A DNA stretch of 31,295 nucleotides from a virus (lineage: Duplodnaviria; Heunggongvirae; Uroviricota; Caudoviricetes). Below the pieces are notes generated by a model. It saw only the letters and a program-made list of their open reading frames with translations. It was not told the origin of the DNA and did no database searches. The DNA lies in the IMG/VR virus record IMGVR_UViG_2617270940_000005, positions 1 through 31,295 of that record; one strand, 5' to 3'. Each line of letters starts with the position of its first letter. The first letter of the stretch is position 1. Position numbers and translations under genes: made by a program. Below are positions 1 through 12,900 of this stretch, piece after piece.

Positions 1-1
1 C

Positions 2-2701
2 AATATAGTTAAATGCGATGTTTTTGACGGTGTTTTCCGCGTTACCAGCAGCGTTAACGGTGATGGTATGTCCATGTGAACCAATCGCAACGGAGTGCGT
101 ATGAGCACCAATACCGACAGTATGTGCGTGTGCACCTGCGCTTGCAGCAGTACCCGATACAGAGTGCGTATGAGCGCCTGCAGAAGAAGTGTTAACACTG
201 TATTTAGAATAATCAGGTGATCCACTTCCCGGAGCACCACTGGAACCACCTGAAACAAATGTCATCGAATGGGTATGTGCACCGGCTGAAGCAGCCGTAC
301 CGCTAACACTATGGGTATGCGCACCAGTGTTATTCGTGGATTTAGTGCCGTAATCAAACGACGATGTGGTTTTCGTCCCCAAATCCGTACTGGATGCGCT
401 GGCGCTGTGGGTGTGCGATTTAATGCCGTCCTGTTCCTGAGACAATACGGCACGACCACTGGCGGGCTTGCCCTTAATCGTCCAGCCACGCATATCAGGG
501 ATCACGCCTGACGGATACGCAACCGCAAGCAGGGGATAGGCTGCCTTATCAAAAGCCTGCCCCTGCATAATGGCATAGCCTGTAGGTACTGAATCAGAAG
601 GCCACGGAATCGCCGCACCTACCGGAAATGAATCCTGCGGCGTCCAAGGTGTCCAGCCACCCGTTGAATACTGGCTGCGGGTATAGCTTCTGGATGTGTT
701 ATACACATAGTAAATTTGTGTTATTCCGGCATTTTTAAGCACAACCAGAGTGCCCGCAAGGTTCTCCGGGTATTTCAGCGATGCGCTTGCATTCGCATTC
801 AGTGGCTGATGGTACAGCCCCGGCGTTTTGTAATTATCCAGATTCTGGTTTGCACCAATCTCAATACTCTGACTGTTAAAAATATCCTGCGATGTAACAT
901 TGACATCATTGGTCAGTGGTTTGCCATTGACCTTACGCTCGCCAGGAACGCGCCCGTTTGCATTATCATTAGCTGCTTTCACTGCTTTCGGTGTCGCGGC
1001 AAACGTTTCAGATGCGCTGTTGGTTGCACTACTGAGCTGGACAATTCCTTTTTGTGCTGTCGTAGCGTCCTGAGCAGTATATTTCCCGTTAGCAAGGTCA
1101 TAGGCTGCCTTTACCGACTTTGGCGTTGCCGCCAGCATTTCAGATGTGCTGTTGGTCGCGTTGCTAAGCTGAACTATCCCTTTCTGTGCTGTCGTTGCAT
1201 CCTGTGCGGTGTATTTCCCGTTAGCCAGGTCATACGCGGCCTTAACGGCTTTTGGTGTTGCCGCCAGTGACTCGGAAGTACTGTTGGTCTCACTGCTAAG
1301 TTGTACTATTCCCTTATTCGTCGTGCTTGCATCCTCAAGCGCCACGGCGGATGCAATATCCTCTGCCCGTTTTGCCGCTGTCTCAGAGCGTGTTGCCGCG
1401 GATTCTGCCGCATTTTTGCTCTGCGCAGCCGCCGTCGCACTGTCTGCCGCTTCCGTCGCCTTCGTTGATGCCGTTGTCGCACTCTCTGCTGCCGCTGACG
1501 CCTGGCGAGCGGCCTCATCTTTTGAAGATGACGCCGAGGAAGCTGAAACAGAGGCAGAGCTTGCAGATTCGGCTGCTGTCTCCTTAGAAGCAGCGGCATT
1601 GTTTTCTGAAGTCTTTGCATTGGTTTCAGAAGATTTTGCCGCCTCTGCTGACTTTTCCGCAGCTGTTGCCTGTTCCGTCGCCTCTGTCGCTTTAGCGGTG
1701 GCATTTGCCGCAGATAACGAAGCGCTTTCCGCAGACTTTTCTGCCGACGTTGCACTTGATGAAGCACTATCCGCGCTTATTGAGGCCGCGCTCGCTGACG
1801 TTTCTGCCGCAGATTTAGAACTGTTTGCAGACAATGCACTCTGTTCGGCAGCAGCTTCAGACGCTTTTGCGTTTGTCTCTGATGCTTTTGCTGCCTTACA
1901 TGAATTTGCAGCTTCTGTAGCTGATGATGCTGCCGCGTTTGCACTCGATGAAGCGTTAGTCTCTGATAATTTAGCCGCATCCTTAGATGCAGAGGCACTG
2001 GACGCTGATGTGGCTGCCTCCGATGCTTTAGTCGACGCCACAGATGCTGATTTTGCTGCCGCTTCTTTTGCCGCTTCTGCGTTTGTTTCAGATTTTTCCG
2101 CAGCAGCTGCACTCTCACTCGCCGCACTTTGTGAAGATACCGCAGCGGATGCACTTTGAGATGCCTGAGAGGCTTTTTCTACAGCAGTGTTGGCACTTTC
2201 TGCCGCAGCGACAGCACTGGCCGCCGCCTCCCGAGCTTTGTCTCCAGCGGCCTCAATCGCATCGGTGTTATTTTTATACCACTCAACGTTTTCGTTATGC
2301 TCGTTGACGATCTGCATTAGCGGCTTAACGGTCACTTCTGTACCGTCTTCACGCTCGATTGTCACATCATCCAGAGCGGTCAACCAACTGCGCATGGACT
2401 TGGAATCAGCCGACATACGCGACATTAGTGCAGTAAAGCGCGCACTAAACTGAGTTAAGTCGCCTTCATAGGTCGTAATGATTCGGCACGGAACTTTAGA
2501 TTGAGTTTCGCCGGTATAAGGTTCTGAGAGGACAATGACCGTATCACTGGTTACGCGCTTGACCTCATACAACTTATTGTCAGGACCAATGACAATCATG
2601 CCCGGTAACACGCCGTTTTCGGTCAAATTCCAACGTGTTCCGATGCCTGATATTGTGTCGCTTCCTTTTGTAAATGTAACAGTACCTTCTCTGTACCACA
2701 T
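2..2701 (-). CDS. stf: Side tail fibre protein, lambda Stf-like; C-terminal few residues lie beyond the window start
   Basis: Not in the ORF track because it has no stop inside the window. ATG at 2701-2699 with AAGGAG upstream. Translation reads [21 protein letters not shown]..., an Ala/Ser-rich coiled region, three 44-aa repeats ([39 protein letters not shown]), then [57 protein letters not shown] and His-rich [29 protein letters not shown], which match the lambda Stf C-terminal half as I recall it. Frame checked at both ends and mid-gene. Confidence 0.85.
949..1340 (-). repeat. Three tandem ~132-bp direct repeats inside stf (44-aa fibre repeats)
   Basis: Units at about 949-1080, 1081-1212 and 1213-1340 are visibly similar at nucleotide level (e.g. 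atttcccgttagc[a/c]aggtcata..gccgccag..ctgttggt..ctgctaag). Confidence 0.8.
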
Positions 2702-2836: not shown

Positions 2837-5800
2837 TTAACTGATGCCCGACATGGAAAATGCGCCACTTCCACGGCTGATTAGCATCACGGGCGAATAA
2901 ATATGTGTCTGTGATGAACTGGTCACTTTTACCGTAACAGCAACAGTTCTTGAGGTAACATTGTTAAAAGCAGCGTAAAGAGTGCCACCGACGCCTGTAG
3001 AACTTGTCGAATTAAGATCAGGGTCTCTGTATGTAGCCCCCTTACCAGTGGCTGCGGTCTTCGTCACTCCATTGCAGGTAAATTGGGCTGCAACAGGGCC
3101 GACGCCCCCCGTATATACATTTATTGCCACATAAATATTTTTGGGCAATGCAGACGAAGAAGAGTCTGTATATGTCATTGTATATGTGCCGCTGTTACGA
3201 ACTGAGAAGTCATTGCCCACATACATGTTAGCGACATCGCCTACGAAGTGATCTGCTTGTACCGTGCCTCTGAATGTTCCGCTGGTAGCCTGTATTTCTC
3301 CTGTGAATTTGCCATTCGTTGCGTAAACGGTGCCTCTAACAGTTACATTGTTAAACTCTGAGTTCCCGTTTTTATTAATATGCCACCCCGTCATTCCGCT
3401 TGAGTAATCGTTGGACTGAATGAAGTTGCCTATTTTGGCGTTATCAATGGTGCCGTTCTTGATATAAGCTCCGTTCATATAAGCCACACCGGCATCAATA
3501 ACGAATGGCGTTGTAATTTTCCCATTAACGGAGTTCACCAAACCAAAGCGATCTGCCTGCACCAAAAACTGCGATAGACCTGTTGTGTCGATGCCCAACG
3601 CTATGCCGGCAACATATTTTTGGCCTCCGCTGGTGGAGGTTTCCATTTTCAGCGTCCAGGCTGTTGATACCTTCTTGTTCGTATCAGCAATAGCTGTGGC
3701 CTGTTGTTGAATTGTTGCTGTATTTCCATCTACTGATGCTTTTAAGGTGTCAATTCTCCCACTTAGTGCATTGTCGGCGCTTGTACGCGTAGTCGCTTCA
3801 GATGTAATCGCAGCATGAATATCTTTGCTCGTTTGAGCCTGTAGATTAGTGATATTAGAAGCCAAAGCGGAATCAGCATCAGTTCTGGCTTTCGTCTCTT
3901 TAGCTACAGCCGCCTTAATATCCTTGCCCGTTTGACTCTTCAATGTAGTTATCTGTTGTGCCAAAGATTCGTCGGCAGTTGCTCGGGCGTTTTTTTCTTC
4001 AGATATAGCGGCACTAATATCGCCTTCAACTTTGGCTTGTAACGATAGGACTTCTTTTGAAAGTGCTTCATCGGCACTGGCTCGCGCCTCTTGTTCACTC
4101 ACAATTGCGGCAGAAATGTCATCGTTAATCTTTGATTCAAGTTTGGTGATTCTGCTTCCAATAGCATTATCCGCATCTACACGAGCCGTAGTCTCTTCAG
4201 TGATTGAAGCTCTGATATCCTCATTTATTTCAGCTCTAATCTCTTCCATTTTCGTAGCCATTGCGGACATATCATCTGCAAAAGCCTTCTGAGTTGTGGC
4301 GATCCTGGCATTGCTCACCATCTGTTTGTGCTGGTCTTCATCCTGACGCAAAGCTAAATCGATGTTTGTTTTAGCCAATGCCTCAATGTTTGTCGTCACT
4401 TCGGCACTGGAGTGCTCGACTTCAGCCACGGTTTTTTTCATCTCTTCAATGGTGGCCAAACTGCTATCTACAGTTGACTTCATTGCCTCGATTTCTTTCG
4501 CGTTCGCCAAGTCGCCTTCGACTCGTGCCTCACGTTCCTCCGCAACTAAAGCCGATGAATTGTCCAGTGCTGCATTCGCGGCCTCAACCGCTCCAGCAAC
4601 GACCTTGTCTTGCTCTGAAACAGTTTCCTTCAACTGAATTAATGCGGCATTTGAGTTTTCAACCTCCTTAAGAGCCTCTTCCACCTTGCTGACAGTATTA
4701 GAAACTTCCGTTCTAAGAACGTTTTGGGCTTCTTCAATCCGTTGATCGGTCTCAGTAAATTTGTCATCAAGGCTTTTCAGGCTTTCTTCCATCTGCTTGT
4801 TGATTGCGTCGACGGCTTCCTGCGAGGCTTTGGTGTCGATTTCCTCAAGCAGTTCCTGCCCCAATTCCGAAGAAGTGATCTTCCCGGTCAGGAAAGACAG
4901 AACATCTTTCGTCATCGCCTCAGTGCCCAAATTGGAGTTGGGCTGGCTCAACATTCCGCGTTTGTTTGCTGCACGAACCCAATAGAACCAAGTTTCGCTA
5001 TCTCCAAGACCTGCGTGCGTAAAGGTGGTACTGGCTGCTTCGGCAATTAGTTTTGCAGTATCCAGGTTGTTGGTCCGGGATGCATACACGTTGATGTGAT
5101 CGAGGTCGATTGAGTCCGGGTTAACCCAATTCAGAATCACATTGCGGTAGTCGCCCACGGCCGTCAGTGCAGTCGGTGCATCCGGCGGCGTCATCGTCCC
5201 CTGAACTTTGTAGACGGTGCTGATAATTTCTGTTTTTTTACCGTTGAATGAAACCGCATACAGTTGGAAGTCGTAGCGTCCATTCTCCGCGACATTAACG
5301 ATTTCGTATTGCTCTTCGGTTACACGCGCCGATTGCCAGTTCGATACATTGTTTGCATCAGAACGTCGCCAACTGATCCAATACTCTGGAGATTTCCCTT
5401 CCCATGTTGCAGTCAGTTTTACTGACAGGTTGCCCGGGCTTGAGAGATAAGTCCCTTCAGTGATTTGCAAATTAGACGGCTTGGAGTAAGTCGGGTCCAA
5501 TACCGTCGTATTCTGCGGGATAAGCGTTGCACCATTGTCGATCGCCTCATATTTAGACGGATTGTTTTCAACAGCGGTGATGTCAAAGCTACCCGACGTT
5601 TCCCCCTGAGCGATGTTAACGATGCGAACGCGCATAGGTTCGAGATCTGGTTCTGTAATTGTCCAGACACCGTTCAAAACAGGCGTTTCCGCTGACGACA
5701 GGGCTTTTGAAAACGTAACTTTTGTTATATTTTCGCCAGTTTCAAGAACATCGCGTTCAACGATTTTGCCTTCCTGATTCAGTATTCGAATAAAGCAGCC

Positions 5801-7417
5801 GCCTTTGGCTAACGACACAGGCGCATCGAGTGTGACGCTGTTTTTGGTAAACGCCACAATTCGACCTGAGTTACGTTTGCCTGCGCGATATTTGTTCTGA
5901 ATCAGAACGGTTTTACCAGGCATCAAAAATGACGCGTCTAAGCCGGCAGTAAATGTAATTACATCCGACTCCATTCTGGCGGTATATAAAAGCCACAAAC
6001 CAACTCGGTGAGCCTGCCCTCGGCTTGTACAGCCAAATGCTACGACTTCTGTCTTACGCTCACCATAACGGTGCATTGCGTCCTGATCTTCAACGTACTC
6101 GATGTTTTGCTTATAACCGTCCTCCTTGTTGTTGTAGGTTACGAGCGCAACGGATGGGCGATCTTTACGCGCAGAACCTTTATAGGTAAACAATCCATCT
6201 TTGACGTTAGAGTTGGTAAACATCATTACCGGATCTGATGGGCTATCCTGCATGATGTTAACCATCCCACCAGCCCAAAACACCATACCGCGGAATGCTC
6301 CAGCAATATCCTGAATTAGCCGGTATGCGTCCTGTCGACTGGTGATCTGCGTATTGATTGCAAAGCGTTTCTCTTTGCCACCAAAGCCATCATCGACCTC
6401 TTCGTCACAATATCGACCAATCTGGTACAACTGGCCAAGGTCAATCATAGATTCCGACACATACTGGCCAAGGCCATATCGAGCATTGGTCAGCAAATCA
6501 AAGAGAATCCACGCAGGGTTTGAAGAAGACAACAGCTTAAAAGTACCGTCCCATACGCCGACATAAGTATTGGTGTATTCGTTGTAGTTTGACGGTACTC
6601 GGATTTTGATACCGCGCACCAAATACGAACGGGAAGGCATTGTGCTACCAAACTGCTCTGAATTGACCTTCAAGCCAACAAGAGCAGAGTTAGGGTAGTT
6701 CATTGGCGTGTCGACAATTTCCCCGATGGAATCCACCCATGTATCGTTATAGAGATACTGAGTTTTGCTGTCGTCGGTTAGACGTATGACACGAACCTTA
6801 TATGCACGGCCAGGTTTCGGCAGTTTGAGTTCATAGCTGCGGTAGTAAACACCTGTCTTCTTCGCTGTCAGTGCAATTTCAACGTCTTTCTCACCTTCAG
6901 CAACGACATCGGCAAATGTTCCATCGCCATTGGCAATCTGGAACTTGTATTTGACTGTTGTACCGTTGGTGTCGCCGGATTTCTTATCCACGGAACGTAG
7001 AGAGGGGAATTTGAGAATGAGTCGAACGCGGTCAGCTTCATCGTTATCGATGGAGACCGTGACATCATGCGTCTTTTTCAACTGAATGTTGATGGACTTC
7101 GGCGTCTCGACGAAATCAAAACCGGCCATAGGCGTCTGATCTTGCGAACCATCGCGAAAATCCCATGTAATACCGCTGTAGTTTGCAGAGCCGTCTTCAT
7201 TGAGGATCGGCAGGTCGTCGATAAAAATCGACTTTGCTCCGTCGACAAGACCGCCAATAACGCCTTCCCCGAGCAAGTCGAGGATGGACGCCATAGCACG
7301 CGAGTTAACGGTATCATCGGCTTCAACCGGCGTGCGGCTGGAGCTGCTGCTTTTCTTGCCGCCTGCACCTGCGATCAGGAGAGGCAGTCTTTTCTTCTTG
7401 AACTGTTCCATGTTCAA
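2837..7417 (-). CDS. J: Tail tip / host-specificity protein, lambda gpJ-like, with a long coiled-coil insertion
   Basis: 1526 aa. Blocks matching lambda J as I recall it: N-terminal ILDLLGEGVIGGLVDG, NSALVGLKVNSEQFGS...RVPSNYN...GVWDGTFK, AFGCTSRGQAHRVGLWLLYT, FLTGKITSSELGQELLEEID, GQKYVAGIALG...LSQFLVQADRF. Lambda J is 1132 aa; the extra length here is a coiled-coil stretch. Confidence 0.85.
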   Translation of the reverse strand: MNMEQFKKKRLPLLIAGAGGKKSSSSSRTPVEADDTVNSRAMASILDLLGEGVIGGLVDGAKSIFIDDLPILNEDGSANYSGITWDFRDGSQDQTPMAGFDFVETPKSINIQLKKTHDVTVSIDNDEADRVRLILKFPSLRSVDKKSGDTNGTTVKYKFQIANGDGTFADVVAEGEKDVEIALTAKKTGVYYRSYELKLPKPGRAYKVRVIRLTDDSKTQYLYNDTWVDSIGEIVDTPMNYPNSALVGLKVNSEQFGSTMPSRSYLVRGIKIRVPSNYNEYTNTYVGVWDGTFKLLSSSNPAWILFDLLTNARYGLGQYVSESMIDLGQLYQIGRYCDEEVDDGFGGKEKRFAINTQITSRQDAYRLIQDIAGAFRGMVFWAGGMVNIMQDSPSDPVMMFTNSNVKDGLFTYKGSARKDRPSVALVTYNNKEDGYKQNIEYVEDQDAMHRYGERKTEVVAFGCTSRGQAHRVGLWLLYTARMESDVITFTAGLDASFLMPGKTVLIQNKYRAGKRNSGRIVAFTKNSVTLDAPVSLAKGGCFIRILNQEGKIVERDVLETGENITKVTFSKALSSAETPVLNGVWTITEPDLEPMRVRIVNIAQGETSGSFDITAVENNPSKYEAIDNGATLIPQNTTVLDPTYSKPSNLQITEGTYLSSPGNLSVKLTATWEGKSPEYWISWRRSDANNVSNWQSARVTEEQYEIVNVAENGRYDFQLYAVSFNGKKTEIISTVYKVQGTMTPPDAPTALTAVGDYRNVILNWVNPDSIDLDHINVYASRTNNLDTAKLIAEAASTTFTHAGLGDSETWFYWVRAANKRGMLSQPNSNLGTEAMTKDVLSFLTGKITSSELGQELLEEIDTKASQEAVDAINKQMEESLKSLDDKFTETDQRIEEAQNVLRTEVSNTVSKVEEALKEVENSNAALIQLKETVSEQDKVVAGAVEAANAALDNSSALVAEEREARVEGDLANAKEIEAMKSTVDSSLATIEEMKKTVAEVEHSSAEVTTNIEALAKTNIDLALRQDEDQHKQMVSNARIATTQKAFADDMSAMATKMEEIRAEINEDIRASITEETTARVDADNAIGSRITKLESKINDDISAAIVSEQEARASADEALSKEVLSLQAKVEGDISAAISEEKNARATADESLAQQITTLKSQTGKDIKAAVAKETKARTDADSALASNITNLQAQTSKDIHAAITSEATTRTSADNALSGRIDTLKASVDGNTATIQQQATAIADTNKKVSTAWTLKMETSTSGGQKYVAGIALGIDTTGLSQFLVQADRFGLVNSVNGKITTPFVIDAGVAYMNGAYIKNGTIDNAKIGNFIQSNDYSSGMTGWHINKNGNSEFNNVTVRGTVYATNGKFTGEIQATSGTFRGTVQADHFVGDVANMYVGNDFSVRNSGTYTMTYTDSSSSALPKNIYVAINVYTGGVGPVAAQFTCNGVTKTAATGKGATYRDPDLNSTSSTGVGGTLYAAFNNVTSRTVAVTVKVTSSSQTHIYSPVMLISRGSGAFSMSGIS
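3695..4186 (-). repeat. Five tandem 33-36-aa repeats within the J coiled-coil region
   Basis: Protein repeats of the form AR.-ADxAL-...I..L.S....DI.AAI..E.., residues about 1078-1241; visible as ~100-bp periodic similarity in the nucleotide sequence. Confidence 0.7.
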
Positions 7418-7427
7418 AAAATCCTTA

Positions 7428-8021
7428 TTACATAAGCTGGTCGATGGTGATAGAAGAACTCACAACCTGCGAGCCAACCAAAATTTCCTCTCCATAGATC
7501 AGCTGCACCGGGTTTCCCTGGTTAGTGGTGTTCTGCGGCCCATCGAAATAGAACGAGTCGGAGTTATCTGCCTGTCTTACACTTTCGTTAGTGGCTTGCG
7601 GAGATATGATTTGCGCTATACCGCCCATCATCAGTGACAAACCGAGAGGTGCTAAAGCAGGCATCATTACCGCCGATACAACCAACAAAGCGGCTCCTAC
7701 TACCGTCTGAAACCACCCAAAAGCAGAACCGCCGCTTCCTCGCGGAACAGGGGTAATGCGGATTTTGGCTATGTTGTCAGACTGCCCCATCATCTGATAT
7801 TCACTCTCGTCCACAGACCACTTGTGGCCCTGTTTATTGGTGATCTGGATGTGGTATCTGTCATAGGTTTTGATGTTGCGCTTCATCCATGCTTTAAACC
7901 CAGGCTTGTTGGCCGCAATTAAATCCAGAGCCTGCTTGGTGTTGCGAACTTTCAAATGCCAGTGACGACCAAAATGTTTGGCCATAGGGCCGCCAAGTTG
8001 CACATGAACTAACTCAGACAC
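7428..8021 (-). CDS. Tail assembly protein, lambda gpI-like (assigned mainly by position and size)
   Basis: 197 aa between the K-like and J-like genes; hydrophobic central segment; 3' end overlaps the K-like gene. Confidence 0.55.
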   Translation of the reverse strand: MSELVHVQLGGPMAKHFGRHWHLKVRNTKQALDLIAANKPGFKAWMKRNIKTYDRYHIQITNKQGHKWSVDESEYQMMGQSDNIAKIRITPVPRGSGGSAFGWFQTVVGAALLVVSAVMMPALAPLGLSLMMGGIAQIISPQATNESVRQADNSDSFYFDGPQNTTNQGNPVQLIYGEEILVGSQVVSSSITIDQLM

Positions 8022-8833
8022 TTTTCATCTCCCTTGAGTAAGTCTCTGTGACGCAGATGGTGCGTCGTATGTTTCTGGTACATGCCGCCGTAATAAGCGC
8101 GACAACTCAGGCGGTCGATTTGGTGATGCAGGATCATGCCGTCTCCGATATACACCGCGCAGTGATCAGGCATTTTCCCGTACTGGATGAAGAAGACATC
8201 GCCGCGCTGCGGCTCCGTCCCTGGCGCAAGACGCACAAGCCCTTCATTTCGATAGTTATGGTCGAGAATGTCATCATCACCCGTGTACCATGACGGAATA
8301 TGCAGATGCGCATTCGGGTTCAGCTCGACACCAAACTCTCGTTTCAGATAGTCGCGACAAAGCATCCAGCAGTCGAAGACGCCGAACACATAGGGTCGGC
8401 CCAGATAAGGCATCTCAAAGCCGTCTGGGGTGATTACATTCATTTCACTGAAGTGAAATGGCGCATCGCCCTCGATGTTCTTGCGAACAGCCAGAATCAG
8501 CCACGGAACTTCCGTTGCCTCACATCCGGCGCGGTCGGCGTCTGACGCATCAGCAGATTCGTCAGTATGGGAGTGCCAGATGGCAACCACGTCTCCCGCA
8601 TCTTCCGCAGTGATAATGTCGTCAGCGTGCATAACAAACGTGTTTTCCGGGTGCTCCGACACGTTCCGGGCTTCAATGAAGCGATATTTCTCGCCAGTGG
8701 TACGCACCAGAAAGCCACACGCTTCGTTCGGGTAACGTTTAATGGCTGTCAGATAGATTTCCTGCATAACGTCCGAACCAAGCTCCGGGAATACTCTATT
8801 GCCCATAACGCGTTGCCCCAATGAACCCGCCAA
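8009..8833 (-). CDS. K: Tail tip assembly protein, lambda gpK-like (JAMM/MPN plus NlpC/P60 domains)
   Basis: JAMM-like motif EACGF...HSHTDESADASD and Cys-containing DCWMLCRDYL. The track start at 8833 is TTG; in-frame ATGs at 8806 and 8767 are alternative starts. Confidence 0.7.
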   Translation of the reverse strand: MAGSLGQRVMGNRVFPELGSDVMQEIYLTAIKRYPNEACGFLVRTTGEKYRFIEARNVSEHPENTFVMHADDIITAEDAGDVVAIWHSHTDESADASDADRAGCEATEVPWLILAVRKNIEGDAPFHFSEMNVITPDGFEMPYLGRPYVFGVFDCWMLCRDYLKREFGVELNPNAHLHIPSWYTGDDDILDHNYRNEGLVRLAPGTEPQRGDVFFIQYGKMPDHCAVYIGDGMILHHQIDRLSCRAYYGGMYQKHTTHHLRHRDLLKGDEKCLS

Positions 8834-9497
8834 AGTGGATTACGCCATTGGCAAAGTAGTTGCGCCGTGCGTTGCATGAGTCGTAACGTTTCGTGCAGCA
8901 ATCCGCTCCTGACATGGTGGTTTGCTGGTTGTTTTTGTCGAAGTACGGACCGGTGTAGCCGCACTCTGGTCCGCGGTATCTCCACGGGCATGTGTTTTTG
9001 ATGATCTGGCGGTACGGCAGCTGCACGCCCATCAGGTCGAACACACTCGACAGCTCAAACTCGACGACCTCATGGGTTTCGAGAGTCTTCTGTTCGATGA
9101 ACCACATTTCATCCGGGAAGTGCTGATTTGGATCTGCGGTTGGATTCCCGTCTTTGAAGTTGGCCTCGTCGAGAAAACGCGCCAGTGTCATCTTGCGGAT
9201 GATGCGACAACCTACCAGATCGTCGTTTGCCTGAACTTCAGCGGAGACAGTTCCGGCAAAGTTGGAGACCTGGATTTTTGGACGAGGCAAAGTACCCTGA
9301 CCAGTCTTATCAAAGCCTGACGCTTTGATTGGCCACGGTTCGTAGGACACGCCTTGCCAAACAACCGGCTCCATCAGCTCGTTTGTACCAGCGTGGAAAT
9401 ATAGCTTGCCTCCAGAGGTGGTGTTCGACATATCAAGTTCGAACAGTTCAATGAGCGCGGAGGGCGACAAGCTCTGAATATCAGCTTTAATACCCAT
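8796..9497 (-). CDS. L: Minor tail protein, lambda gpL-like
   Basis: Blocks shared with lambda L as recalled: WQG..Y.P.PI..SGF, TCPWRYRGPECGYTGP, FGGF. Start refined to ATG at 9497 (AAGGAAG RBS); the track start at 9530 lies inside the terminator hairpin. Confidence 0.8.
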   Translation of the reverse strand: MGIKADIQSLSPSALIELFELDMSNTTSGGKLYFHAGTNELMEPVVWQGVSYEPWPIKASGFDKTGQGTLPRPKIQVSNFAGTVSAEVQANDDLVGCRIIRKMTLARFLDEANFKDGNPTADPNQHFPDEMWFIEQKTLETHEVVEFELSSVFDLMGVQLPYRQIIKNTCPWRYRGPECGYTGPYFDKNNQQTTMSGADCCTKRYDSCNARRNYFANGVIHFGGFIGATRYGQ

Positions 9498-9510
9498 TGT
9501 TTCTTCCTTG

Positions 9511-9542
9511 AAATAAAAAGGCGCCAACATCCTGTCAGCGCC
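9511..9542 (-). terminator. Intrinsic terminator-like hairpin plus U-tract between M and L
   Basis: Minus-strand RNA GGCGCUGACA-GGA-UGUUGGCGCC (10-bp stem with two G-U pairs) followed by UUUUUAUUU. Confidence 0.6.
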
Positions 9543-9550
9543 ACAATGAT

Positions 9551-9571
9551 AGTAAATTAGTACTTACTTAT
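9551..9571. repeat. Instance B of TAAGTA..TACTTA motif
   Basis: agtaaattagtacttacttat, between M stop and the terminator. Confidence 0.5.
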
Positions 9572-9579
9572 CCAGATGC

Positions 9580-9915
9580 TTAAGCCTCAAATACTTGTCT
9601 GAATGTAGCAGTTAAGACACAGTACCCCTGATATCGCTTGACCGTATGACTGTCACATACAACTACAATCTGCTTGCCTCTTGGATTAACCCAATAGAAC
9701 GATTCAACGCCTGATCGCTCAGTCAGGAAGTCATCGATTGCATTAATTTCGTTGTATGATCTGGTAAAGGTTAACGACCATTCTTCTTTAATACGATTAA
9801 GACCTTGAGCCTGTCGCTGCTCGTAGTCATCACCAAAATTAAGTACCGTTACATTCGGTTTTACGCTTTTTTCAGATTCGTAATCTGGATACCAATTAAA
9901 CGTTTGTCTTTCCAT
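9580..9915 (-). CDS. M: Tail tip protein, lambda gpM-like
   Basis: 111 aa; pattern FGDDYEQRQAQGLN...WSLTF...FL.ERSG..SFYW resembles lambda M (FGDGYSQRAPAGLN...); sits between tape measure and L. Confidence 0.7.
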   Translation of the reverse strand: MERQTFNWYPDYESEKSVKPNVTVLNFGDDYEQRQAQGLNRIKEEWSLTFTRSYNEINAIDDFLTERSGVESFYWVNPRGKQIVVVCDSHTVKRYQGYCVLTATFRQVFEA

Positions 9916-9931
9916 CTCACATCCTTGTGAG

Positions 9932-9951
9932 ACTGCCCCGGTCGGGGCAGT
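9932..9951 (-). other. GC-rich stem-loop between tape-measure stop and M ribosome-binding site
   Basis: actgccccg-gt-cggggcagt, perfect 9-bp inverted repeat; no U-tract. Confidence 0.5.
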
Positions 9952-9957
9952 CGATAG

Positions 9958-12900
9958 TTAGTTACGTGGAGTGTTTGGGTTGAGTGATCCGCCAGGGCGT
10001 TTCTCTTGAGCGATAGTCTCAAGCGCGATTGCTTTCATCCGTTGAGCGGCATTGTTCCATATGCTTTCTGTATCGCCGGATTCAGTTGTGCTACCGTCAC
10101 TATGGACGTTGATCTCAATTGATACCGGAGAAAGAACATTTCCTCCTCCACTCATACCATCGGTACTGAGCGTTACAGGGATTGTTCGACCATCAGGCAA
10201 TGGAACATACGCCTCATTCATAGAACCTTCCCCAAACAACGCTAATTGAGGCGAGTTAGCAATACCGCCTTTCTGGTATGCCCGGAGCGGGATCACGCCG
10301 TCTTTTCCGAATATTCCTCCATTTGCAAACTTCGGTATTGCAGGAATGCCTTTAGTTCCGTCAGCCACACAGCTGGTTGCGGTTTTAGCAGAGCTTGATG
10401 CCACGCTGTCGAAACCACCGCCAGCCCAAGCTGAAACAAGACCAGATGCAACCGTTGCTCCAAAACTCAACCACTTATTACCAGAGCCGGAAGCATTAGC
10501 TCCAAGCATTGCAAACGCGGCAGACAGCGCGCCGGTAACAGAGCTGAGGTTCTGCATCGAGAAGATGGAGTCCTTCACGGCTTTTGTCTCGGCATCTTTG
10601 GCTTCAGTGCTATCAAATAGCCCTGATACCCAGCTACCAATCGCATTTGTTGCAGTGCCAATTGCGCTGGTGGTCTGCTGTGTTGTTTGCCCCAATCCAG
10701 TTACCGAACTGGACGTCTCCTTCGTGGCTTCTCCTACCGACTTGTCGCCATTGACCGCATTCATCCGGACGCCTTGGTTGGCAACCGCTGACGCGACACC
10801 AGAAAGAAGATTGCCGCTCTGAGAGCTGCCCGCTGCCGTCGTTCCCATACCCAGCATGTTCATGAGAGGCAGAGTGATCTGCGTCTTCACAACCATGTTG
10901 GTGATGTCGCGGAGAATGGATTCTGCCAGACTGGAGAAGTCCATTTTCCCCTTCATAACGAAGTCGGTCAGCGTATCCGTCATGTTGCTGAACAGGTTGC
11001 TCCAGCTGTTTTCCAGCTGATCGGCCAGATTCTCGTACTCAAGCGCCAGCTTCTGTGTCGCCGTACCCGTCTCTTTGATGAGCGCGGTGTTGCCTGCCGC
11101 CACCAGCTGGTTAATCTGCTTAGTGTACAGCGCCACGATTTTCGGGTCTGAAGCCCGGTCACGCAGATCCATCAACGCTTTCAGGTTACGGTTGTAGGTG
11201 TCTTCGAAATCAGCAACCTTCTCTTCACGAGACGGCTTGTAACCCGCGCTAATGATGGAATCGGATTCCGGCGCCCAGGTGGAGATCATCTGCTCGACGT
11301 TGCGGCGGTTGAACATCTCGCGATATTCAGGTGTCGCATTTTTGAGGTCTTCAAGACGTTTTTTCGCCTTGTCGATCATCTCTTGAGTGATGAACTCGTT
11401 AGGAACCGCATTAGCCAAATCAGTTAGCGATTTTGTTGTATCGCGAAGAGACTGATCAAACGATACCGTAGCCTTAGAGCTTTCACCCATTTGCCCCATA
11501 AGCTGATCGGCTTTATCCAGAGCCTTCTGATATCCGGCCGCCAGTTTCTGTTGCGCTGCCTGTTCTTTCTTGGTCGCACGCTGAGAAGCATTGGCTGTAC
11601 GTCGCCCGGCTTTTTCCGCTGCTGCGGCATCCTGTTCGCGCGCTTTGGTCAGCGCGGCAATGGCTGCGGCGCGTTCCGCATCGCTCATTTTCTCCAGAGA
11701 GCTGGCACTGGATGCTTTCTGCAAATTAAGCTGCGTCTTGAGTTGTTTAGGCCCAATAATCGGCTTACCTTCGAAGTCCATCATCGGAGTGCCGTCAGGA
11801 AAAGTACGCTGATAAGTCGCAGAATCCATCTGGTTTCGCATATATTGCGCCAGAGCTTTCTGGGCCGCCTTGTCGCTCGTACCAAGCCCCAACACGGTTC
11901 CCTGGTTGGACATGACGTCCTTACCAGTTTTGGCGGCGTTATCACGCTCAAATTCGGCCTGAGTCAACTCCTGAGCGACAGCTTCCAGATGCACCTGATA
12001 GCCTAGAATACTGCCTTGTATCTTCTGAACCTGCTCGGTATTGCCCTCTTTCTTCGCCTTTTCGAGCAGATCGTTGTAGTGAGCAATCTGCTTCTCGGTC
12101 GCGTTTTTACGAGAGGACAGGGAATCAACCAGTTTTTGCGCAGGCTCCAGATAGCTTTTGTTTACCGTTTCACGTAACGGTGCCAATAGCTTGTTCTTTT
12201 CGTCATCTGAAAGTGAACCGTCATCATTGATTTTCTGGATCTTATCCAGAGCCTCCTGCCGGGCTTTCACGAATGTTGCCGCGAAAATCTGGTTTTCCGC
12301 TCGAATTTTCTCAATCTGAGATTCGGCAGCCTCTTTAGCCAAACGCTTTGCTACAGCGCCGTCACCAAGAGCTATCGTGCCGGTTATCTTTTGATACTCT
12401 TCCTGATTTTTTTTCAGGCGTGCTTCGATGTCAGCCTTCGACTCTTTGTGAGTAATAACACCGGCAGAGTTAGATACGTAATTAACACTCTCACCAGTTT
12501 TTAATGCTCGTTGATCAGCAAGAATCTGCTTTTCGAGCTTTTCTGCGCGGTCGGCCATTTGTGCACGTTTGGCCGCCGTCATCGCCTCTGGTATTTTCCT
12601 AATCTCGTCAACAACCTTTGAAGTTTCGCTTCGGAGCATGGTCATGTACGTGATTAGGCCAGCAACAGCTACAGTGGCAACTGTAAATGCTGCCCCTATA
12701 GGGTTTGCTGCAATGAACGCCGTTAATCCAGCAAAAGCGCCTTTAAGCCCCGTAATCGCCCCACGGATGGCGAAAATAAGAGAGGGGATCGGAGCCAGCC
12801 CCATACGTGCCGCACGATTGAATCGAGTTACTGCTGTAGCGCCGAGGTTAAATGGAGTCTGTATGGCGGTCGCCATCGTGGCAAAGGTGCTAACCATCTG

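What the first reader, a model, noticed from the sequence alone, without database searches (positions are those of the whole stretch)
2837..7417. J-type tail tip protein with a ~390-aa coiled-coil insertion and a non-lambda C-terminal domain
The protein keeps the lambda gpJ-like N-terminal and central blocks but is 1526 aa. Between the conserved FLTGKITSSELGQELL block and the conserved YVAGIALG...LSQFLVQADRF block there is a long Ala/Glu/Lys/Ser-rich helical stretch ending in five tandem 33-36-aa repeats. The last ~285 residues (Gly/Thr/Ser/Asn-rich) do not resemble the LamB-binding domain of lambda J as I recall it. This suggests an extended central fibre and a different receptor.
Basis: partly seen in the sequence, partly recalled or inferred. 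Interest (0 to 1): 0.5.

Follow-up and report, generated by a model that had tools for sequence, protein, structure and literature searches.

The report
Long-shafted phage central tail fibre
This is the central tail-fibre (J) gene of an SSU5-like phage-plasmid of E. coli: its long helical shaft is a feature already known in this family, and only its small receptor-binding tip is a rare variant whose receptor is unknown.

Summary
The ORF is real. It lies on the minus strand at 2837-7417 and encodes 1526 aa from TTG, or more likely 1524 aa from the ATG at 7411. It is the lambda-J-type tip attachment protein of an E. coli SSU5-like phage-plasmid (99.8% identical to pGS04EC-1).

Compared with lambda J, about 370 aa (862-1231) are inserted exactly at lambda's short alpha-helical shaft. 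The stretch has no proline. AlphaFold2 predicts two 181-residue helices. It ends in five exact 33-aa repeats.

This is not new. SSU5 gp20 is 88% identical across the whole shaft. Phage Cyrano has 11 repeats, and other phage J proteins have longer proline-free stretches. The distal repeats are homologous to the F-type pyocin fibre, whose coiled coil was shown in 2026 to refold into a beta-prism on receptor binding. The published 11-residue switch motif recurs here in strict alternation.

Residues 1232-1418 align with lambda's beta-prism. Only the last ~130 aa differ: a confidently predicted jelly-roll knob, one of at least five swappable tip cassettes. It occurs in 19 of 5426 complete E. coli genomes, and its receptor is unknown.

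The side fibre's N-terminus resembles the F2-pyocin side fibre, which docks on the shaft.

Verdict: new member of a known kind; modest interest.

The parts
2837..7417 (-). Whole J (tip attachment / central tail fibre) gene. 1526 codons from TTG at 7417; the likely start is the ATG at 7411 (1524 aa); the stop codon is at 2837-2839.
   Evidence: ORF list and translation. Annotated CDS in the 99.8%-identical plasmid pGS04EC-1. SSU5 gp20 begins MEQFKKK. AGGA lies 10 nt upstream of the ATG.
4886..7417 (-). aa 1-844: baseplate-hub domains plus two fibronectin-III domains, homologous to lambda J 3-820.
   Evidence: Pfam PF24801, PF13550 and fn3. BLASTP to lambda J, 32% identity, E 9e-122. PDB hits: lambda J 8iyk, F2-pyocin fibre 25vf, 9l9p_S and 23gd_D.
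4325..4885 (-). aa 845-1031: proximal helix ('helix A') of the shaft, with heptad-like periodicity. Residues ~862-955 lack the switch motif.
   Evidence: AF2 helix at model residues 12-192. Hydrophobic period 3.54. Motif scan. No PDB homologue.
4238..4417 (-). aa 1001-1060: conserved island spanning the predicted helix break (1032-1038) and the acidic patch D1026-E1027-D1028. Candidate docking site for the side fibre.
   Evidence: pLDDT below 50 at model residues 188-199. 80-90% identity to Cyrano J here against 40-50% in the flanks. The function is inferred by analogy with F2/F7 pyocin (PMC13455828, PMC12874032).
3761..4303 (-). aa 1039-1219: distal helix ('helix B'), with hendecad periodicity. 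Candidate fold-switching segment.
   Evidence: AF2 helix at model residues 200-380. Hydrophobic period 3.66 = 11/3. Residues 1136-1233 align with F2-pyocin fibre 970-1068 inside an E 1e-28 match.
3746..4240 (-). aa 1060-1224: five tandem 33-aa repeats (consensus L.A..xGDI.AAI..E..AR..AD.AL...I..). Each carries one reverse and one forward copy of SxSxxMxxLxS, with Arg four residues before the Asp.
   Evidence: No DNA-level tandem repeat by TRF, so the copies are old and diverged.
3236..3745 (-). aa 1225-1394: central straight fibre (beta-prism), Pfam Phage_Tail_Tip / DUF1983, followed by the GTVYATNGKFTGEIQATSGTFRGTVQA turns.
   Evidence: PF09327, E 1.4e-45. Aligns with lambda J 841-1026 and with 8xcj, 9wca and 9ze4. 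AF2 gives strands from aa 1224 onward. Shared by 1630 phage records.
2840..3235 (-). aa 1395-1526: C-terminal receptor-binding knob, an all-beta jelly-roll sandwich. A rare allele of a hypervariable tip family with the framework FVGDVANM...TYTDSS.S...NG..K...SP..I.RGSGxF.
1..2701 (-). Side tail fibre gene, starting at the ATG at 2701; its 3' end runs off the window. The N-terminal ~108 aa resemble the shaft-docking N-terminus of the F2-pyocin side fibre.
   Evidence: Annotation of pGS04EC-1. Pfam Phage_fiber_2 and Collar. PDB match to 25ve_A, E 1.5e-4. No match to the lambda Stf N-terminus.
7428..14541 (-). Upstream lambda-type tail-tip module: tape measure (9958-14541), M (9580-9915), L (8796-9530), K (8009-8833) and I (7428-8021).
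   Evidence: Pfam Phage_min_tail, Phage_tail_L, and Prok-JAB + NlpC/P60. Plasmid annotation.

Best explanation
The gene encodes the trimeric tip-attachment / central-fibre protein (J) of an SSU5-like temperate phage-plasmid of E. coli.

Proposed layout, from proximal to distal:
- Residues 1-844 form the lambda-like hub and the two FNIII domains that close the tail tube.
- Residues 845-1219 form a very long alpha-helical shaft. It has a proximal heptad segment, then a conserved acidic break (~1026-1038), then a distal hendecad segment built from 33-residue units.
- Residues 1225-1394 form the beta-prism 'straight fibre' shared with lambda.
- Residues 1395-1526 form a jelly-roll knob that binds the terminal receptor, probably an outer-membrane protein.

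Proposed mechanism (inferred, not shown). The shaft has two jobs. First, its conserved break/acidic island is where three side-fibre trimers dock through their OB-like N-termini, as in F-type pyocins. Second, the motif-bearing part (~956-1231) is a metastable coiled coil. When the knob engages its receptor, this part would refold onto the pre-existing beta-prism seed, each 33-residue unit becoming one beta-hairpin. That would shorten the fibre, shed the side fibres, pull the FNIII domains apart and open the tube for tape-measure and DNA exit.

The tip knob is an exchangeable host-range cassette joined at a conserved (V/I)GD(V/I) junction.
For: Shown by tools:
- Identity and context: 99.8% to plasmid pGS04EC-1, with gene order H-M-L-K-I-J-stf.
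- Hub homology to lambda J and to solved J-like proteins.
- The insertion maps exactly to lambda's helical shaft (with PMC11101478 for the lambda domain map).
- The shaft is helical: AF2 gives two 181-residue helices, there is no proline at 827-1303, and the periodicity is 3.54 then 3.66.
- Residues 1136-1352 match the F2-pyocin fibre at 970-1185, E 1e-28.
- The published switch motif SxSxxMxxLxS (PMC12874032) occurs 23 times against 12.5 +/- 3.3 in shuffles.
- The motif also occurs as strictly alternating reverse/forward pairs at 956, 988, 1037, 1070, 1103, 1136, 1169 and 1202: 8 pairs against 0.11 expected, with a maximum of 2 in 2000 shuffles. Arg lies four residues from the Asp/Glu at the M position, as that paper describes.
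- The same paired motif is present in 13-16 units in Cyrano, mEp021, phiPMW and ZDD2 J, and is absent from lambda.
- Side-fibre residues 2-108 match the F2-pyocin side fibre 25ve_A, E 1.5e-4, not lambda Stf. This N-terminus is 78-91% conserved among SSU5-like phages, while the shaft island 1001-1060 is 80-90% conserved amid 40-50% flanks.
- The knob is a confident all-beta model with jelly-roll/TNF-C1q-like matches.
- Cassette swapping of tips is seen among relatives.

From the literature: the F7 pyocin coiled coil (163 aa) switches to a beta-prism and mutations blocking this abolish killing (PMC12874032). F2-pyocin side fibres dock on the shaft (PMC13455828).
Against: - No trimer model, alternative-conformation prediction or experiment was possible. 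The fold switch here rests on homology and a motif.
- My residue classes for the motif and the +15 spacing were chosen after looking at the sequence. Internal repeats also make the occurrences non-independent.
- The side-fibre match to 25ve_A is weak (25 bits). The same domain also matches a distal-tail-protein decoration (23gd_B, E 6e-5), so it could dock elsewhere.
- The F-pyocin docking kink contains a Gly; the break here has none.
- Lambda and T5 open without a large switch, so a long shaft need not switch.
- The shaft here is about 100 aa longer than the F7 pyocin's. The proximal 95-140 aa have no solved homologue.
- SSU5 host recognition has been attributed to the side-fibre adhesin gp22 (cited in PMC12312913), so the J tip may matter less than assumed.
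- The receptor is unknown.
Confidence: 0.6

Rival explanations
1. Static spacer. The coiled coil is a rigid, permanent stalk. It only sets how far the receptor-binding knob projects, for example to reach the outer membrane through O-antigen or capsule, or to match the reach of the long side fibres. Opening of the tube would be triggered as in lambda, by twist transmitted through the fibre without large refolding.
For: Copy number of the 33-aa unit varies (5 here and in SSU5, 11 in Cyrano), as expected for a length-tuning spacer. The proximal 862-955 lacks the switch motif. The heptad periodicity of 862-1059 is that of a conventional stable coiled coil. Lambda and T5 open without a large switch (PMC12874032 discussion).
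Against: The distal shaft is homologous to the pyocin segment that does switch. It carries the motif in regular alternation. The small residues at exposed positions and the R-D pairs are hard to explain for a purely static coil. It is also unclear how a twist signal could be transmitted through ~55 nm of coiled coil.
Confidence: 0.25
2. Side-fibre scaffold only. The main role of the extra shaft is to carry and space the three side-fibre trimers. The J tip knob would be an accessory or vestigial adhesin, with host recognition done by the side fibre and its assembly/adhesin partner, as reported for SSU5.
For: SSU5 and Cyrano J lack any knob, having only a 32-aa stub after the beta-prism, yet SSU5 is infectious. 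SSU5 core-LPS binding is attributed to gp22 (PMC12312913, citing Kim 2014). The side-fibre N-terminus resembles the pyocin shaft-docking domain. The docking-candidate island is the best-conserved part of the shaft.
Against: The knob is intact and confidently folded, and it is kept at >=95% identity in 26 plasmids. Relatives carry at least four other knob cassettes at the same junction, including a lambda-like one. That is the signature of selection on receptor binding, not decay.
Confidence: 0.1
3. Antiparallel six-helix bundle. The two equal-length helices (181 + 181 residues) fold back on each other at the break, giving a stalk half as long (~27 nm) with the beta-prism brought back near the tail tip.
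For: The AF2 monomer gives two helices of identical length separated by a low-confidence 7-12-residue break.
Against: In Cyrano J, helix A is the same length but the distal helix has 11 rather than 5 repeats, about 190 aa more. The two arms are therefore not length-matched across the family. The model's pTM is 0.28, so the arm arrangement is not predicted with any confidence. The F-pyocin shaft is a parallel three-stranded coil (PMC13455828).
Confidence: 0.05

Closest known systems
Salmonella phage SSU5 gp20 (SSU5_020, YP_006906652, 1385 aa) and the J proteins of SSU5-like phage-plasmids (Escherichia phages Cyrano, PhiR41_1, CMS-2020a)
   Same: 88% identity over residues 3-1356. This covers the hub, the FNIII domains, the whole ~370-aa shaft, the five 33-aa repeats and the Phage_Tail_Tip domain. 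Gene order is the same and the side-fibre N-terminus is the same.
   Different: SSU5 and Cyrano J stop 32 aa after the beta-prism domain and have no terminal knob. This protein continues for ~170 aa with further prism turns and a jelly-roll knob. Cyrano has 11 repeats instead of 5.
F-type pyocin central fibre protein (F7 CFP; F2 PyoF10, PDB 25vf) of Pseudomonas aeruginosa
   Same: Hub homology, E 5e-163. An extended three-stranded alpha-helical shaft lies between FNIII-2 and the beta-prism. The distal shaft plus prism align at E 1e-28. The 11-residue switch motif and R-D pairs are present. The side-fibre N-terminus is related to the F2 side fibre that docks on the shaft.
   Different: It is a phage protein, not a tailocin protein. 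The shaft is ~370 aa, against 163 aa of resolved coiled coil plus ~100 aa of 'spine' in F7. It carries its own C-terminal knob, whereas the pyocins lack one and are thought to use separate proteins PyoF11/F12. No small genes lie between J and the side-fibre gene here. The fold switch is experimentally shown only for F7.
Bacteriophage lambda gpJ (NP_040600; PDB 8iyk, 8xcj/8xck)
   Same: Same domain order: hub, FNIII-1/2, helical shaft, beta-prism straight fibre, then a cis-encoded C-terminal receptor-binding domain of ~130 aa. 32% identity over the hub and 28% over the prism. Same H-M-L-K-I-J-stf gene order.
J tip of Escherichia phage vB_EcoM_PD328 (Nonagvirus, UVK80401) and of enterobacterial prophage 'DUF1983 / phage tail tip fiber' proteins (e.g. 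P0016, P0028, P0034)
   Same: Same terminal-knob family. The alignment runs end to end over prism plus knob at ~40-44% identity, and 34.5% over the knob itself. The framework motifs are conserved and the ending ...SP..I.RGSGSF is the same.
   Different: PD328 J is 1047 aa with a short shaft and no 33-aa repeats. The interior loops of the knob are hypervariable, so receptor specificity probably differs. No receptor is known for any member that I could find.

Membership tests
Lambda gpJ-type tip attachment / central tail fibre protein | Baseplate-hub domains homologous to gpJ (Pfam FNIII-A_GpJ PF24801, Phage-tail_3 PF13550) | tested here: met
   PF24801 E 2.7e-29 and PF13550 E 1.7e-33. 32% identity to lambda J over 840 aa, E 9e-122. 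phmmer to 8iyk_J, E 7.6e-134.
Lambda gpJ-type tip attachment / central tail fibre protein | Position in a tape measure-M-L-K-I-J tail-tip gene module | tested here: met
   Upstream ORFs match Phage_min_tail, Phage_tail_L and JAB+NlpC/P60, and there is a 1527-aa tape-measure ORF. The annotation of the near-identical plasmid agrees.
Lambda gpJ-type tip attachment / central tail fibre protein | Beta-prism straight fibre (Phage_Tail_Tip / DUF1983, PF09327) after the helical shaft | tested here: met
   PF09327 E 1.4e-45 at 1235-1370. Aligns with lambda J 841-1026. AF2 gives strands from residue 1224.
Lambda gpJ-type tip attachment / central tail fibre protein | Cis-encoded C-terminal receptor-binding domain homologous to lambda's Ig-like, LamB-binding RBD | tested here: inconclusive
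Lambda gpJ-type tip attachment / central tail fibre protein | Binding of an outer-membrane protein receptor that triggers tube opening | not testable with these tools
   Needs adsorption or binding experiments.
Long-shaft, fold-switching central fibre proteins (F7/F2 pyocin CFP type; He et al. 2026, PMC12874032) | Long alpha-helical coiled coil between FNIII-2 and the beta-prism | tested here: met
   AF2 monomer helices at 851-1031 and 1039-1219. No proline at 827-1303 and periodicities of 3.54 and 3.66. The trimeric state itself was not modelled.
Long-shaft, fold-switching central fibre proteins (F7/F2 pyocin CFP type; He et al. 2026, PMC12874032) | Sequence homology of the distal shaft to the pyocin coiled coil | tested here: met
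   Residues 1136-1352 align with F2-pyocin fibre 970-1185, E 1e-28, with the last three repeats opposite pyocin 970-1068. The equivalence of F2 and F7 numbering is my assumption.
Long-shaft, fold-switching central fibre proteins (F7/F2 pyocin CFP type; He et al. 2026, PMC12874032) | SxSxxMxxLxS motif in alternating orientation, with Arg four residues from an acidic M position | tested here: met
   23 motif matches against 12.5 +/- 3.3 in shuffles. Eight reverse+forward pairs against 0.11 expected. R20/D24 and E16/R20 are present in every repeat. The residue classes and spacing were set by me.
Long-shaft, fold-switching central fibre proteins (F7/F2 pyocin CFP type; He et al. 2026, PMC12874032) | Coiled coil converts to beta-prism on receptor binding | not testable with these tools
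   Needs trimer, alternative-conformation prediction (AF3 or CF-random) or cryo-EM of two states. Only monomer AF2 was available.
Long-shaft, fold-switching central fibre proteins (F7/F2 pyocin CFP type; He et al. 2026, PMC12874032) | Side fibres dock on the shaft through an OB-like N-terminal domain and stem | tested here: inconclusive
   Side-fibre residues 2-108 match the F2-pyocin side fibre 25ve_A at E 1.5e-4, but also the distal tail protein gp20 of 23gd at E 6e-5. There is a conserved acidic island in the shaft. No direct test of binding was possible.
Long-shaft, fold-switching central fibre proteins (F7/F2 pyocin CFP type; He et al. 2026, PMC12874032) | No cis receptor-binding domain; separate tip proteins (PyoF11/F12 homologues) encoded just downstream | tested here: not met
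   This protein has its own 130-aa knob. The 135-nt gap to the side-fibre gene holds no plausible gene: only a 70-aa minus-strand ORF (2580-2792) that overlaps the side-fibre start, with nothing annotated there.
SSU5 gp20-type J of SSU5-like phage-plasmids | High identity over hub and shaft, in an SSU5-like ~100-110 kb IncFIB phage-plasmid backbone | tested here: met
   88% identity over 1354 aa. The window is 99.8% identical to the 106-kb plasmid pGS04EC-1, and 720 related plasmid records were found.
SSU5 gp20-type J of SSU5-like phage-plasmids | Short 32-aa C-terminal stub after the Phage_Tail_Tip domain | tested here: not met
   SSU5, Cyrano and many relatives end ...NGNSGGNGRLVINGQRIDVYDDNNVLRVRIGLL. 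This protein diverges at residue ~1356 and continues for 170 aa.

The most novel reading that the evidence does not exclude
The 33-residue unit is a dual-coded module: three hendecads of coiled coil that can become one beta-hairpin of a prism. Its copy number (5 here and in SSU5, 11 in Cyrano, 13-16 related units in other phages) would tune the stroke and stored energy of a fold-switch 'spring'. In this element the spring is fired by a cis-encoded knob of a tip family with no known receptor, after release of side fibres docked on a conserved acidic break in the shaft. If so, SSU5-like phage-plasmids would offer a natural length series, in a genetically tractable E. coli system, for testing how non-contractile tails generate force.
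Probability: 0.35. Interest if true: 0.55.

Novelty: new member of a known kind. Interest (0 to 1): 0.3.

Why it matters
How non-contractile phage tails get the energy to breach the envelope is a live question. The 2026 F7-pyocin work proposes a coiled-coil-to-beta-prism switch and predicts it in phages, but it has not been shown in a phage.

This J protein combines three things:
- a shaft homologous to the switching segment, with very regular repeats;
- a lambda-style built-in receptor knob;
- pyocin-like side fibres.

It sits in an E. coli phage-plasmid family that is widespread (720 plasmid records) and easy to manipulate. It could therefore serve as a test bed.

On the practical side, the tip is one of several swappable cassettes, which bears on the host range of SSU5-like elements; I did not check resistance-gene carriage in these elements. 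None of this makes the gene itself unusual. The long shaft is family-wide and already described.

Tried and rejected
- Reading the given coordinates on the + strand gives only stops. The gene is on the minus strand.
- TRF found no DNA-level tandem repeat in the gene. The protein repeats are old and diverged, not a recent duplication or an assembly artefact.
- The last 127-132 aa alone gave nothing by tblastn in the phage collection, even at E 10. The 5.8-billion-protein search gave only a 97%-identical fragment. HMMER against 1.84 billion representatives gave two remote true relatives. Relatives appeared only when the conserved prism was included in the query.
- Foldseek of the knob against the PDB gave no convincing match (best E 2e-3, TM 0.43). 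BFVD gave only weak C1q/TNF-like and J-tip hits. I therefore do not claim a specific fold family or a receptor.
- The weak matches of the proximal helix to influenza HA2 (E 0.1-0.5) are compositional coiled-coil resemblance. I rejected them as homology.
- I looked for a Cor-type exclusion gene downstream as a receptor clue, since SSU5 has one. In pGS04EC-1 the corresponding genes are lysis genes, so there is no clue.
- The TolC-type C-terminal J extension mentioned for Drexlerviridae in the BASEL paper is not detectably related. Only PD328 and BHUENT2 cover the knob among 50,697 phage records.
- I rejected the fold-back hairpin model of the two equal helices because Cyrano's arms are unequal.
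- Kim et al. 2014 on the SSU5 receptor is not in the held library. It is cited only second-hand.
Full report
**What is at the coordinates**

The finding's coordinates hold one uninterrupted ORF on the minus strand, 2837-7417, of 1526 codons from a TTG. The plus-strand reading is full of stops. The near-identical plasmid record and phage SSU5 both start two codons later, at the ATG at 7411. That ATG has an AGGA 10 nt upstream, so 1524 aa is the likelier product. I keep the 1526 numbering below.

The window is 99.8% identical over its first 8 kb to E. coli plasmid pGS04EC-1 (106 kb, IncFIB), and 720 plasmid records match at lower identity. The closest named phage is Salmonella phage SSU5. The source is therefore an SSU5-like phage-plasmid.

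The gene sits in a lambda-type tail-tip module:
- tape measure, 9958-14541
- M, 9580-9915
- L, 8796-9530
- K with JAB and NlpC/P60 domains, 8009-8833
- I, 7428-8021
- J
- a side tail fibre gene starting at 2701 and running off the left end of the window.

**Checking the observation**

The hub is J-like. Pfam finds FNIII-A_GpJ (103-237), Phage-tail_3 (359-522), fn3 (646-729) and Phage_Tail_Tip/DUF1983 (1235-1370). BLASTP against lambda J gives two blocks. Residues 22-861 match lambda 3-836 (32%, E 9e-122), and residues 1232-1418 match lambda 841-1026 (28%, E 8e-15). About 370 residues (862-1231) therefore sit where lambda has four.

According to the lambda structure paper, this point lies in the alpha-helical shaft (AHS), between FNIII-2 and the beta-prism 'central straight fibre' (PMC11101478).

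The inserted stretch is Ala/Glu/Ser/Thr/Lys/Asp-rich. The proline-free run spans 827-1303. It ends in five copies of exactly 33 residues at 1060-1224. The identity autocorrelation peaks at lags 33 and 66, and xRxxADxxL recurs every 33 residues. TRF finds no repeat at the DNA level, so the copies are old.

The claim that the last ~285 residues are non-lambda is too broad. About 175 of them are the lambda-like prism. Only ~1395-1526 lack similarity.

**Is it a coiled coil?**

Hydrophobic periodicity is 3.54 residues for 862-1059 (heptad-like) and 3.66 for 1060-1231 (11/3, hendecad).

An AlphaFold2 monomer model of residues 840-1300, built on a 47-sequence alignment, gives one helix at 851-1031. 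A low-confidence break follows at ~1027-1038, just after D1026-E1027-D1028. A second helix spans 1039-1219, and beta strands start at 1224 (mean pLDDT 77.7).

Trimer state could not be modelled. If the shaft is a continuous coiled coil, my calculation gives ~55 nm.

**It is not unique**

SSU5 gp20 (1385 aa) is 88% identical over residues 3-1356, including the whole shaft and all five repeats. The J proteins of Cyrano, PhiR41_1 and CMS-2020a align over 98-99% of the insertion at ~55% identity.

Cyrano J (1575 aa) has 11 of the 33-residue units, so its shaft is ~560 aa. The J proteins of mEp021, phiPMW and ZDD2 (1727-1922 aa) have proline-free stretches of 581-827 residues.

Solved J-like proteins also carry related repeats:
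- F2-pyocin fibre, 25vf
- 9l9p_S
- gp24 of 23gd
- 9ze4_N

**What the shaft probably does**

Two 2026 papers bear directly on this.

He et al. (PMC12874032) show that the F7 pyocin central fibre, a J homologue, has a 163-residue trimeric coiled coil. On cell binding it refolds into a triangular beta-prism, opens the tip and ejects the tape measure. Mutations that block the prism abolish killing. An 11-residue pattern, SxSxxMxxLxS, marks each strand, often with Arg four residues from an acidic M position. About 100 residues upstream form a non-switching 'spine'. Similar switches are predicted in 21 of 24 phage fibres.

Gu et al. (PMC13455828) show that three F2-pyocin side-fibre trimers dock on a negatively charged kink of the shaft through an OB-like N-terminal domain and a positively charged stem.

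Three results connect this protein to that work.

First, residues 1136-1352 align with the F2-pyocin fibre 970-1185 (E 1e-28). The last three repeats lie opposite the distal pyocin coiled coil.

Second, the motif is enriched: 23 matches against 12.5 +/- 3.3 in shuffles. It also occurs as a reverse copy followed 15 residues later by a forward copy, at 956, 988, 1037, 1070, 1103, 1136, 1169 and 1202. That is 8 pairs against 0.11 expected, with a maximum of 2 in 2000 shuffles. Each 33-residue unit thus reads as three hendecads of helix, or as one beta-hairpin. Every unit has R20-D24 and E16-R20.

The same paired motif appears 13-16 times in Cyrano, mEp021, phiPMW and ZDD2 J, and never in the lambda fibre. 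Residues 862-955 lack it, which parallels the pyocin 'spine'.

Third, the side fibre's first 108 residues match the F2-pyocin side fibre (25ve_A, E 1.5e-4) and not lambda Stf. That N-terminus is 78-91% conserved in SSU5 and Cyrano. In the shaft, residues 1001-1060 are 80-90% identical to Cyrano, against 40-50% on either side. This island spans the predicted break and the acidic patch.

I therefore propose, as inference, that the shaft is both a docking platform and a metastable spring.

Caveats:
- My motif classes and the +15 spacing were chosen after seeing the data.
- Repeats are not independent observations.
- The side-fibre match is weak, and the same domain also hits a distal-tail-protein decoration.
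- No trimer or two-state prediction was available.

**The tip**

A 37-sequence alignment gave a confident AF2 model of residues 1370-1526: pLDDT 85.5, pTM 0.79, all beta.

Structure searches were not specific:
- Foldseek against the PDB found nothing below E 1e-3.
- BFVD gave weak hits to C1q-like and J-tip domains.

So the tip is a compact beta-sandwich knob in the place and of the size of lambda's RBD. Specific homology to lambda's RBD is unproven.

By sequence, the knob alone is rare:
- 26 of the plasmid records, all >=95% identical;
- 19 of 5426 complete E. coli genomes, all on plasmids;
- nothing in 50,697 phage records;
- two remote relatives among 1.84 billion representatives.

When the prism is included in the query, many enterobacterial prophage 'DUF1983' proteins align end to end at ~40%. 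They share the framework FVGDVANM...TYTDSS.S...NG..K...SP..I.RGSGSF, with hypervariable interior segments. Among phages, only Nonagvirus PD328 and Enterobacter phage BHUENT2 do so.

SSU5-like J proteins carry at least five different endings at the same (V/I)GD(V/I) junction:
- a 32-aa stub (SSU5, Cyrano)
- a Yersinia pestis type
- a lambda-like type in Citrobacter
- another ~100-aa type
- this one.

This is ordinary host-range cassette exchange.

No receptor could be inferred. There is no Cor-type gene nearby, no relation to the TolC-type extension noted in BASEL, and no studied relative. SSU5's core-LPS specificity is attributed to the side-fibre adhesin gp22, not to J (PMC12312913). The original paper was not available.

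**Comparison and verdict**

In function and membership, this is a lambda-J-type central fibre protein of the long-shaft class now exemplified structurally by F-type pyocins. Within that class it is the SSU5 subtype.

It differs from the pyocins and from SSU5 in carrying its own knob. It differs from lambda in the ~370-aa shaft and the unrelated knob sequence.

It is a mosaic of known modules, so I rate it a new member of a known kind.

The residual value has three parts. The repeat architecture is very clean. The repeat copy number varies naturally (5 versus 11), which could test the fold-switch idea in a phage. The tip family has no known receptor.

Noticed in passing
window 1-2701 (minus strand), side tail fibre: The side fibre's first ~108 aa resemble the N-terminus of the F2-pyocin side fibre (25ve_A, E 1.5e-4) and the OB-like decoration of a distal tail protein (23gd_B, E 6e-5). 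They do not resemble lambda Stf's collar domain. The middle of the protein shares Ala/Ser/Glu-rich repeats with lambda Stf (63% over 153 aa). The C-terminus has GAHTHS-type His repeats and a Collar domain.
   Followed up: partly
plasmids CP057716 / CP057895 (69.9 kb) and proteins P0001, P0008: Chimeric ORFs fuse a ParB-like nuclease domain (PF02195) to a C-terminal part of this J: in P0001 only the last 63 aa of the knob, in P0008 (500 aa) the Phage_Tail_Tip region and knob. The 69.9-kb plasmids keep only the second half of the knob. These look like deletion derivatives of SSU5-like elements that have lost most of the tail genes.
   Followed up: no
L004 1921-6648 (Escherichia phage Cyrano J): Cyrano's J has 11 tandem 33-aa units (one of 32) where this gene and SSU5 have 5. 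This gives a shaft of ~560 aa with an otherwise conserved proximal helix and docking-candidate island.
   Followed up: partly
window 4238-4417 (aa 1001-1060): There is an island of 80-90% identity to Cyrano J inside a shaft that is otherwise 40-50% identical. It coincides with the only predicted break in the helix and with the acidic triplet D1026-E1027-D1028.
   Followed up: partly
relatives P0010, P0012, P0013; L003; L004: SSU5-like J proteins end in at least five unrelated C-terminal cassettes. These include a lambda-like one in a Citrobacter element and a distinct one in Yersinia pestis. SSU5 and Cyrano have only a 32-aa stub and therefore no built-in knob.
   Followed up: partly
window 4600-4885 (aa 860-955): The proximal helix gives a long list of weak phmmer hits to the influenza haemagglutinin HA2 coiled coil (E 0.1-1.7). 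I judged this to be compositional resemblance between trimeric coiled coils, not homology.
   Followed up: no
window 7428-8021 (minus strand): The gene in the position of lambda I (197 aa, annotated 'tail assembly protein') matches no Pfam family at E 1e-3, although its neighbours M, L and K all do.
   Followed up: no
window 1209-2159 (+) and 1306-2154 (-): Long spurious ORFs, Ala-rich or Arg/Gln-rich, appear in other frames across the repetitive Ala/Ser/Glu-coding part of the side-fibre gene. They are frame artefacts of the repeat composition, not genes.
   Followed up: no
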